DNA of 64,000 bases from Promethearchaeota archaeon. GTDB taxonomy: Archaea; Asgardarchaeota; Lokiarchaeia; Sigyniarchaeales; SOKP01. Every line of letters begins with the position of its first letter. Within the stretch, counting starts at the first letter, position 1. Below the pieces are notes generated by a model, which had not been told where the DNA came from, made no database searches, and was given only the letters and a program-made list of their open reading frames with translations. Both the position numbers and the translations under genes were made by a program. The DNA is taken from assembly GCA_030599585.1 (NCBI GenBank), contig JAUVNS010000009.1:64001-128000 (forward strand), in the 5' to 3' direction. Below are positions 2,824-5,857 of this stretch, piece by piece.

Positions 2824-3258
2824 ATGGCAGAAGAATTCGCAAATTTCATGCAAGAAACAAAAAAGGCTCCTTTAGAAGAAAAACTAAACGCCTTTGGAGA
2901 CATCGTTGAAAGAATGATGTTTGTAATTTTAAAAATACCCGACTTAGTAGATCAGTCTTTAGCTACTGTAAATCAAAAAATATCCACATTGGAATCACGA
3001 TTCAATACGATTAACAATGAGGTATCATCATTAAGGACCAAAGGCGTTGGGACATCCCCAGTAATCGCTTCACCTACCTCCCCAAGCAGCGCACCACCGC
3101 CTTCTGGAGGCCCGCCTGGAGGTCCACCTGGAGGTCCACCTGGAGGTCCACCACCACCTGGAGGACCCGGAGCCGCTCGTCCAGCAAGTCCGGTGAGCTT
3201 AAGAGGTGCCATAATGGGCGAATTAAAGCAACTTTTTTCTAAGAGAAACCAATCGTGA
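2824..3258 (+). CDS. Coiled-coil + Gly/Pro-rich + C-terminal WH2-like helix protein
   Basis: N-terminal heptads, (GGPP)n/PPPP tract, C-terminal SLRGAIMGELKQLFSKR. Confidence 0.7.
   Translation: MAEEFANFMQETKKAPLEEKLNAFGDIVERMMFVILKIPDLVDQSLATVNQKISTLESRFNTINNEVSSLRTKGVGTSPVIASPTSPSSAPPPSGGPPGGPPGGPPGGPPPPGGPGAARPASPVSLRGAIMGELKQLFSKRNQS
3104..3168 (+). repeat. 12-nt coding tandem repeat (cctggaggtcca-like) encoding GGPP
   Basis: ctggaggcccgc ctggaggtccac ctggaggtccac ctggaggtccaccaccac ctggaggacc. Confidence 0.9.
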
Positions 3259-5245: not shown

Positions 5246-5857
5246 TTAGAATTCAAGAAAGCCTGGATCGTCAAAAATATCTTCGATTTTTTTTGCTTTC
5301 TTCATGTCGCTTTCGTCGTGCTCTGTAAATAAAGACTCGTCATCTGTTTTTATTCCTTTCTCTAACTCAAGGGAGTCTAGTTGAAGTAATGCATCCTTTT
5401 CTAATCTATTATATTCTTCCGATCTAATTTTCCATTTATTAACTACATCAAGGTTAATATTATCTTCATCTTCTAAAGCCTCAGCAGCTTTAGCTTTGCA
5501 AATATCCGATAAAATAGAATAAATTAGAACCAATTCCCCCCATTCATTTTTCGGTTTAAGTTTCTCTAAGCGTTTTTCTAATCTCTGAAGTTCTTGATCA
5601 GCGTAATGAATATCGATAAAATCTCCAAAGGCATCAACGGGTTCTGAGATTGAATTAACTAAAACTTCCTTTGTTAAACCACAATGACCACACTTCACTG
5701 TAGCAATTGCGCTTTTCCGAATATTCTTAACCTTGATAGATTTTTCACCGCAATCCATATTAAATGGGATATCCATTTAGTTATTTGGGCATGTGAAAAT
5801 CTTTGGAACTCTCTTAACTCTTTTATATGATTGTTGTTTACGTTTCCTTCTTCCCAT
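5246..5857 (-). CDS. elf1: Transcription elongation factor Elf1 with C-terminal helical/acidic extension; split by a 30-nt intron (exons 5857-5783 and 5752-5246, 193 aa)
   Basis: MGRRKRKQQSYKRVKRVPKIFTCPN^CGEKSIKV...ATVKCGHCGL...EPVDAFGDFID; the ORF track starts inside the insert at 5776. Confidence 0.9.
5753..5782 (-). other. Putative bulge-helix-bulge mRNA intron in elf1
   Basis: AACTAAATGGATATCCCATTTAATATGGAT; in-frame TAA; internal stem TAAATGG/CCATTTA; central helix CCAA/AUGG (3 of 4 pairs); bulges AUA and AUU; exon helix UUUUCAC-A-UGC/GCG-GUGAAAA. Confidence 0.8.

What the first reader, a model, noticed from the sequence alone, without database searches (positions are those of the whole stretch)
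5740..5800. Second BHB-type intron splits the first CxxC zinc knuckle of Elf1
Seen: the minus strand reads TGC CCA AAT|AACTAAATGGATATCCCATTTAATATGGAT|TGC GGT GAA. The 30-nt insert (5782-5753) has an in-frame TAA and a TAAATGG/CCATTTA hairpin. The fold has bulges AUA and AUU, central helix CCAA/AUGG (one A-A mismatch, so a relaxed BHB) and a long exon-exon helix UUUUCAC-A-UGC/GCG-GUGAAAA. Cutting after bulge nt 2 yields exactly FTCPNCGEK and joins the basic Elf1 N-terminus (ATG 5857, missed by the ORF track) to the rest. Elf1 is a conserved RNA polymerase elongation factor, so an intact but 'stopped' copy argues for splicing rather than decay.
Basis: partly seen in the sequence, partly recalled or inferred. 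Interest (0 to 1): 0.92.

Follow-up and report, generated by a model that had tools for sequence, protein, structure and literature searches.

The report
tRNA-type mini-intron splits Asgard elf1
The only elf1 (transcription elongation factor) gene found in this Loki-type Asgard archaeon is broken by a 30-base insert shaped like a tRNA intron, and comparison with 105 related copies indicates that the tRNA-splicing enzymes cut it out of the messenger RNA, which the papers I could search report inside a coding sequence for only one other archaeal gene (cbf5).

Summary
Observation confirmed. elf1 (minus strand, 5857-5246; one copy found) carries a 30-nt insert (5782-5753) with an in-frame TAA between the two cysteines of the first CxxC. 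Cutting after the second base of each bulge gives a 193-aa Elf1. Of 105 related loci, 39 carry a 28-32-nt insert at exactly this site (26 frameshift) and 66 lack it cleanly. Both exons are under purifying selection (dN/dS 0.05-0.08). The Pro24 wobble base covaries with its intron partner, and synonymous codons forming the exon-exon helix are enriched only in insert-bearing genes. [quoted passage not shown] A homology census found three more such inserts (a hydrolase in this window, uS3, uppS). Best reading: a relaxed-BHB pre-mRNA intron of the cbf5 kind, removed by EndA/RtcB (about 0.9). In this genus the insert also offers a TAA-ATG restart, so a truncated product from unspliced RNA is not excluded. 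This scan already noted the same elf1 intron in at least eight findings on other genomes. I found no paper on Asgard mRNA introns.

The parts
5783..5857 (-). elf1 exon 1 (25 codons: basic N-terminus and first Zn ligand Cys23)
   Evidence: PF05129 positions 1-27; dN/dS 0.045 among insert-bearing congeners
5753..5782 (-). 30-nt relaxed-BHB intron, phase 0, between Asn25 and Cys26
   Evidence: same-site 28-32-nt inserts in 39 loci, absent in 66
5246..5752 (-). elf1 exon 2 (Cys26, second CxxC, helical C-terminal extension, stop)
   Evidence: PF05129 positions 28-76, E 7e-10; dN/dS 0.084
5777..5779 (-). in-frame TAA ending the unspliced frame after 26 aa; directly followed by ATG 5776, which opens the 176-aa ORF that gene callers report
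5785..5788 (-). 5' strand of the BHB central helix (exonic CCAA)
   Evidence: pairs with 5758-5755; position 3 is Watson-Crick in 35/39 loci with A-U, G-C and U-A types
5782..5784 (-). 5' bulge AU|A; predicted cut between 5783 and 5782
   Evidence: BHB geometry; inferred
5761..5779 (-). intron hairpin (7-bp stem, 5-nt loop)
   Evidence: -5.9 kcal/mol; most substitutions among nine 30-nt congeneric introns fall in the loop
5755..5758 (-). 3' strand of the central helix (intronic AUGG)
   Evidence: partners slid by 1-3 nt pair 5-46% against 79% in register
5752..5754 (-). 3' bulge AU|U; predicted cut between 5753 and 5752
   Evidence: BHB geometry; inferred
5789..5799 (-). 5' arm of the exon-exon helix (Ile20-Cys23 codons; Thr22 wobble base bulged)
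   Evidence: Phe21 is TTC in 34/39 insert-bearing against 21/66 insert-less genes
5742..5751 (-). 3' arm of the exon-exon helix (Cys26-Lys29 codons)
41846..41878 (-). second intron of the same kind in this window: 33 nt in an alpha/beta-hydrolase gene, splitting HPHPQ|YGG
   Evidence: 33 or 30 nt in 17 loci of the genus (this genome included), cleanly absent in 12

Best explanation
The insert is a non-coding, tRNA-type (relaxed bulge-helix-bulge) intron in the elf1 pre-mRNA. Step 1 (predicted fold plus covariation): the exon flanks pair with each other, the intron forms a hairpin, and exonic CCAA pairs with intronic AUGG, leaving two 3-nt bulges. Step 2 (inferred from established EndA chemistry): the (alpha-beta)2 splicing endonuclease, whose loop lysine is linked to relaxed substrates, cuts after the second base of each bulge. 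Step 3 (inferred): RtcB joins the exons, which restores CPNC and gives 193-aa Elf1. Unspliced RNA stops after 26 codons. The intron is mostly inherited vertically but has often been lost precisely or replaced by short recombination tracts; separate gains at this site in different genera are possible. It is one of at least four such mRNA introns in this genome.
For: Shown: one copy found, both exons under purifying selection. 39 same-site inserts of 28, 30, 31 or 32 nt; the canonical cut restores a 192-194-aa protein in the 37 full-length loci checked. 26/39 lengths are not multiples of three. Central helix: 79% paired in register against 5-46% when slid; position 3 is Watson-Crick in 35/39 with three pair types; position 4 switches A-U, G-C, C-G between genera. 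Exon-exon helix energy median -10.8 against -2.5 kcal/mol, the same direction within each of two genera; the codon set TTC+GGT+GAA occurs in 18/18 against 4/29 (genus g28) and 10/16 against 0/20 (g1), while TTC is 11-13% of Phe codons elsewhere in the gene. Intron better conserved than synonymous sites (L010: 2/30 differences at pS 0.71). EndA alpha (Y141, H149, K180 or K181, loop K58 aligned to A. pernix K44), EndA beta without the His, and RtcB are present. PMC5829648 reports Asgard (alpha-beta)2 EndA with this loop. uS3, an essential gene with one match in this assembly, carries a similar 30-nt insert with two stops.
Against: The central helix has an A-A mismatch, and the minimum-energy fold is not a clean 3-4-3. 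Some relatives have only two central pairs (L043). The statistics treat related genomes as independent and overstate significance. All 16 introns of this genus place an in-frame start codon before exon 2. Elf1 essentiality in Asgard archaea is untested.
Confidence: 0.9

Rival explanations
1. Split gene: no splicing. A 26-aa peptide ends at TAA and translation restarts at the adjacent ATG (5776), giving a 176-aa Elf1 that lacks Cys23 and the basic tail, or two pieces that assemble together.
For: TAA is directly followed by ATG; all 16 introns of genus g1 keep an in-frame ATG, GTG or TTG before exon 2. Public annotations list the 176-aa protein.
Against: 16/18 g28 and 3/4 g22 inserts have no in-frame start. 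The start 6 nt before exon 2 follows from pairing with the Pro codon. Insert changes cluster in the hairpin loop and alter the would-be amino acids. This reading explains neither the central-helix covariation nor the exon-exon helix, nor uS3 and uppS.
Confidence: 0.04
2. Recoding at the ribosome (stop read-through, frameshifting or a ribosomal hop over the hairpin) gives full-length protein without RNA cutting.
For: This insert is 30 nt, in frame, and is a hairpin holding a stop codon.
Against: Lengths of 28, 31 and 32 nt and both TAA and TGA stops occur at the same site. Ten extra residues would sit between Cys23 and Cys26, which are invariant in 31 intact homologues. The covarying pairs span the exon-intron borders in BHB register.
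Confidence: 0.03
3. Dead gene, or a small mobile or repeat insertion in a dispensable gene, or an assembly error.
For: Presence is patchy (21 parsimony changes on a 116-tip tree), and 2-nt direct repeats flank the insert. The assembly has 8.9% estimated contamination.
Against: dN/dS is 0.045 and 0.084 with no further lesions. Near-identical inserts occur in eight other genomes. No second copy of the insert (up to 7 mismatches) was found in the assembly. Intron divergence tracks exon divergence (rho -0.59 and -0.68 within genera).
Confidence: 0.02
4. Spliced, but by something other than EndA/RtcB (self-splicing or an unknown nuclease).
For: The motif is relaxed and no cleavage has been shown.
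Against: 30 nt is far too short for a group I or II ribozyme (established knowledge). No Rfam family hits the window. The conserved geometry matches EndA's cut positions.
Confidence: 0.01

Closest known systems
cbf5 pre-mRNA intron of Desulfurococcales and Sulfolobales (Watanabe 2002; Yokobori 2009, PMC2738675)
   Same: Short (16-44 nt there, 28-32 nt here) ORF-less insert in a coding sequence at a functionally critical site; often relaxed BHB; host with hetero-oligomeric EndA; precise lineage-specific loss.
   Different: Different gene, and an Asgard lineage. cbf5 shows one gain and about two losses over two orders; here about 21 state changes fall within one family, and at least four genes per genome are affected. 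cbf5 splicing is shown experimentally; this is not.
BHB intron in the 5' UTR of Haloferax volcanii HVO_1309 (PMC7714728)
   Same: mRNA substrate of the tRNA-splicing endonuclease.
   Different: Lies outside the coding sequence, so splicing tunes expression rather than restoring a reading frame.
Non-canonical tRNA introns of Asgard archaea (bioRxiv 10.64898/2026.10.13.758758)
   Same: Same motif, enzyme type and repeated gain in the same superphylum.
   Different: That study covers tRNA genes only; the words mRNA and Elf1 do not occur in its main text.
Elf1/ELOF1 family (PF05129)
   Same: Basic N-terminus and four-Cys zinc ribbon; profile hits to yeast and human Elf1 structures, E down to 2e-9.
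   Different: Carries an extra C-terminal region of about 115 aa, predicted as three helices plus a disordered acidic tail, with no clear structural match.

Membership tests
Archaeal BHB pre-mRNA intron (cbf5 type) | Short insert that interrupts a conserved reading frame and is cleanly absent in orthologues | tested here: met
   39 loci with, 66 without, same site
Archaeal BHB pre-mRNA intron (cbf5 type) | BHB or relaxed BHB at the junctions, with exon helix and intron helix | tested here: met
   Relaxed form, 3 of 4 central pairs; covariation and register test
Archaeal BHB pre-mRNA intron (cbf5 type) | Strict canonical 3-4-3 motif as the favoured fold | tested here: not met
   A-A mismatch; MFE gives a 3-bp helix. 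Seven relatives have 4/4 pairs. Not required for membership: cbf5 introns often have relaxed motifs
Archaeal BHB pre-mRNA intron (cbf5 type) | Cut after the second bulge nucleotide restores the orthologous protein | tested here: met
   192-194 aa in the 37 full-length insert-bearing loci checked
Archaeal BHB pre-mRNA intron (cbf5 type) | Host encodes a relaxed-specificity (alpha-beta)2 EndA and an RNA ligase | tested here: met
   Two EndA paralogues, loop Lys aligned to A. pernix K44, RtcB; enzyme activity not tested
Archaeal BHB pre-mRNA intron (cbf5 type) | Spliced mRNA detected in cells | not tested
Archaeal BHB pre-mRNA intron (cbf5 type) | EndA cleaves the precursor in vitro | not testable with these tools
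   needs a bench assay
Elf1 (PF05129) | Zinc ribbon with two CxxC motifs and a basic N-terminus | tested here: met
   Met only after splicing; intact orthologue E 2e-18; C23, C26, C46 and C49 invariant in 31 homologues
Group I / group II self-splicing intron | Ribozyme core of hundreds of nucleotides | tested here: not met
   30 nt; no Rfam hit in the window

The most novel reading that the evidence does not exclude
Loki-type Asgard archaea run routine, protein-catalysed splicing of several housekeeping mRNAs (elf1, uS3, uppS, a hydrolase) with the tRNA endonuclease and ligase. These micro-introns are gained and lost quickly, reshape synonymous codons in the flanking exons, and could act as a stop-or-splice control point on transcription and translation factors. 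This would be a standing population of mRNA introns in the closest prokaryotic relatives of eukaryotes, independent of the spliceosome.
Probability: 0.7. Interest if true: 0.85.

Novelty: new member of a known kind. Interest (0 to 1): 0.74.

Why it matters
A 2020 study says only cbf5 had been reported as an archaeal mRNA BHB intron besides its own 5' UTR case (PMC7714728), and my eight completed literature searches found nothing on Asgard mRNAs. If confirmed, mRNA splicing is a regular part of gene expression in the archaeal lineage nearest to eukaryotes. It gives a tractable natural system for how introns enter and leave coding genes, since intron-bearing and intron-less alleles 96-98% identical coexist. 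It also means public annotations of these genomes truncate core proteins, for example the 176-aa Elf1 entries TES93788.1 and NVM43496.1. The claim can be tested with one cleavage assay or one matched DNA/RNA data set.

Tried and rejected
(2) The spliced-junction pattern in metagenome contigs gave 5 hits, and intact near-identical proteins were traced to contigs. The long contigs carry neighbouring genes on the opposite strand, so they are intron-less DNA alleles; the library type of the short ones is unknown. None counts as evidence of splicing. (3) A de novo genome scan for BHB-joined ORFs timed out or crashed, then missed both positive controls and did not finish its null; discarded. It was replaced by a homology census, whose score is ad hoc and which covers about 60% of one congener. 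(4) 'Ghost' test for recent loss (exon helix kept in intron-less genes near intron-bearing ones): no trend, rho 0.13, p 0.31. Pooled divergence next to the site was not raised in discordant pairs, though three close pairs show clustering. Gain versus loss is therefore unresolved. (5) No donor for the intron was found in the assembly; only two 8-mismatch hits, not tested against chance. (6) The sigma-70 promoter scan was at chance level and does not fit archaea. (7) An AlphaFold model of an intact homologue was weak (pLDDT 66), and the fold search gave no match at E <= 0.001.

Full report
Observation. The gene starts at ATG 5857 and meets TAA (5779-5777) after 26 codons. Removing 5782-5753 gives a 193-aa protein with an intact CPNC. 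Exon 1 matches positions 1-27 and exon 2 positions 28-76 of Pfam PF05129, and intact homologues hit yeast and human Elf1 structures. tblastn finds one copy in the 4.85-Mb assembly, rated 100% complete and 8.9% contaminated. Homologues at over 90% identity are labelled Promethearchaeota or Lokiarchaeota. The junction region folds better than shuffles (z = -3.3), and none of 20,000 shuffled inserts gave both the central pairing and the hairpin. The boundary can slide by two bases without changing the protein, and the minimum-energy fold has a 3-bp central helix with a partly paired 5' bulge, so the motif is a relaxed BHB.

Comparison with relatives. I analysed 105 elf1 loci from the same family. 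Thirty-nine, in four genera, carry an insert at exactly this phase-0 position: 28 nt (1), 30 nt (13), 31 nt (19) or 32 nt (6). Sixty-six lack it cleanly. In all 39 the unspliced frame stops after 25-36 residues. A cut after the second base of each bulge restores 192-194 aa in the 37 full-length loci checked. Twenty-six lengths are not multiples of three, which argues against read-through. Against 15 insert-bearing congeners, pooled dN/dS is 0.045 for exon 1 and 0.084 for exon 2, so the gene is not decaying.

Selection on RNA structure. The four central positions pair in 79% of cells in register and in 5-46% when the partner is slid by 1-3 nt. Position 3 is the wobble base of Pro24: it is A-U in 28 loci, U-A in 4 and G-C in 3, and mismatched only in genus g22. 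Position 4 is A-U, G-C or C-G according to genus, and mismatched in 14 loci, including this one. The exon-exon helix has a median energy of -10.8 kcal/mol in insert-bearing genes and -2.5 in the others, with the same direction inside genera g1 and g28. It is built from synonymous choices: Phe21 is TTC in 34/39 against 21/66, whereas TTC makes up 11-13% of Phe codons elsewhere in these genes. Among nine 30-nt introns of this genus most changes fall in the hairpin loop, and L010 differs at 2 of 30 intron bases although synonymous sites differ by 0.71. Related genomes are not independent, so the p-values overstate; the repetition across genera is the argument.

Machinery. The assembly has two EndA paralogues. 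The 200-aa one is closest to the Aeropyrum pernix alpha subunit (E 1e-33), keeps the Tyr, His and Lys triad, and aligns Lys58 with K44 of the Crenarchaea-specific loop. The 201-aa one lacks the His and fits a beta subunit. PMC5829648 links this loop lysine to cleavage of relaxed motifs and reports it in Asgard EndA. RtcB lies about 11 kb from elf1 on the same contig. That these enzymes act on this RNA is inferred.

Not a one-off. The 33-nt insert at 41878-41846 of this window splits a hydrolase motif; it is 33 or 30 nt in 17 loci of the genus and absent in 12. I fetched 2.3 Mb of a congener that lacks both inserts and searched about 1,870 ORF matches for 15-60-nt insertions in this genome. Thirteen broke the frame. 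Four stood apart, all 30-33 nt with a hairpin: elf1, the hydrolase, uS3 (contig C11, 38148-38119) and uppS (C41, 14116-14087); the other nine looked like alignment noise. None of 59 open in-frame insertions combined that length with that score. The uS3 insert has two in-frame stops, the gene has one match in the assembly, and close congeners lack the insert. Because uS3 is a universal ribosomal protein (established knowledge), this is the strongest indirect sign that this organism removes such inserts. uppS is split at the same motif in about a dozen congeners, and the five I read have 30-nt inserts; its central helix here has only two Watson-Crick pairs. The census misses introns shared with the congener and genes outside the fetched part.

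History. On an elf1 tree with the junction codons masked, presence needs 21 changes among 116 tips. Intron similarity falls with exon distance inside g1 and g28 (rho -0.59 and -0.68), which fits mostly vertical descent; between genera it is mostly near shuffled levels, so separate gains cannot be excluded. Intron-less DNA alleles 96-98% identical to this gene keep identical flanks, as precise loss would give. Three close discordant pairs in other genera differ in a cluster next to the site, as short recombination tracts would give. A single short gene tree cannot settle gain against loss.

Rivals. A restart at the ATG right after TAA would give the 176-aa protein that databases list. All 16 introns of this genus allow some in-frame start, but 19 of the 23 in other genera do not, and the product would lack Cys23, which is invariant in 31 intact homologues. 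It may be a side product; it does not explain the structure data. Recoding, pseudogene and artefact readings are contradicted as set out above.

What is missing.

Relation to known systems. It works like, and by the testable features belongs with, the cbf5 pre-mRNA intron of Crenarchaeota (PMC2738675). The only other archaeal mRNA case I found is a 5' UTR intron in Haloferax (PMC7714728). A 2026 preprint on Asgard introns treats tRNA genes only. The searchable library is incomplete, so lack of a paper is not proof of novelty. This scan's earlier AI notes describe the same elf1 intron, and uS3 and uppS introns, in other genomes. They are not independent evidence; I tested the claims here on my own data.

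Verdict. A real feature, very probably an EndA/RtcB-spliced mRNA intron (0.9). New member of a known kind, and part of what looks like multi-gene mRNA splicing in Loki-type Asgard archaea. Interest 0.74.

Noticed in passing
window 41878-41846 (-): 33-nt BHB intron in an alpha/beta-hydrolase gene, four central pairs (one G-U); 33 or 30 nt in 17 loci of the genus, absent in 12. G005 lacks the elf1 intron but has this one, so losses are gene by gene.
   Followed up: yes
G000 contig C11 38148-38119 (-), outside the window: 30-nt BHB-shaped insert with TAG and TAA in ribosomal protein uS3; absent in close congeners, so probably a recent gain. G107, G130 and G146 also have interrupted uS3; those loci were not read.
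   Followed up: partly
G000 contig C41 14116-14087 (-); L331-L335: 30-nt insert splitting the DG|NRR motif of uppS; central helix here has only two Watson-Crick pairs, three or four in some congeners.
   Followed up: partly
G000 contig C32 57327-58634 (L118), about 5.4 kb before the window: The RtcB ligase gene lies about 11 kb from elf1 on the same contig.
   Followed up: no
window approx. 5246-5620 (-): This Elf1 has an extra C-terminal region of about 115 aa (three predicted helices, acidic tail ending DDPGFLEF), conserved in the family, with no clear structural match.
   Followed up: partly
L054 and L069 (genome G103): One bin holds both an intron-bearing and an intron-less elf1 on different contigs; they fall apart on the tree and the bin is 9% contaminated, so probably two strains.
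   Followed up: no
L037/L056, L036/L099, L045/L073: Close pairs that differ in intron presence also differ in a cluster of bases next to the site (5/33, 9/33 and 4/33 against 2-4% elsewhere), suggesting exchange of the intron with short flanks.
   Followed up: partly
G000 contig C26 124184-124153 (-): A 32-nt hairpin insert with 4/4 central pairs came up in the discarded de novo scan; unverified candidate.
   Followed up: no
genus g18 (G061-G065): Two Elf1-like matches per genome in a frame of about 253-261 aa; G064's coordinates suggest a tandem Elf1 domain. Not examined.
   Followed up: no
window 2824-3258 (+): 144-aa protein with a proline-rich GGPP repeat, variable in length against the congener, and a short basic C-terminal helix; no Pfam hit.
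   Followed up: no
G000 whole assembly: ARAGORN makes only 36 tRNA calls, 20 with introns and several with implausible anticodons or sizes, consistent with many non-canonical tRNA introns.
   Followed up: no
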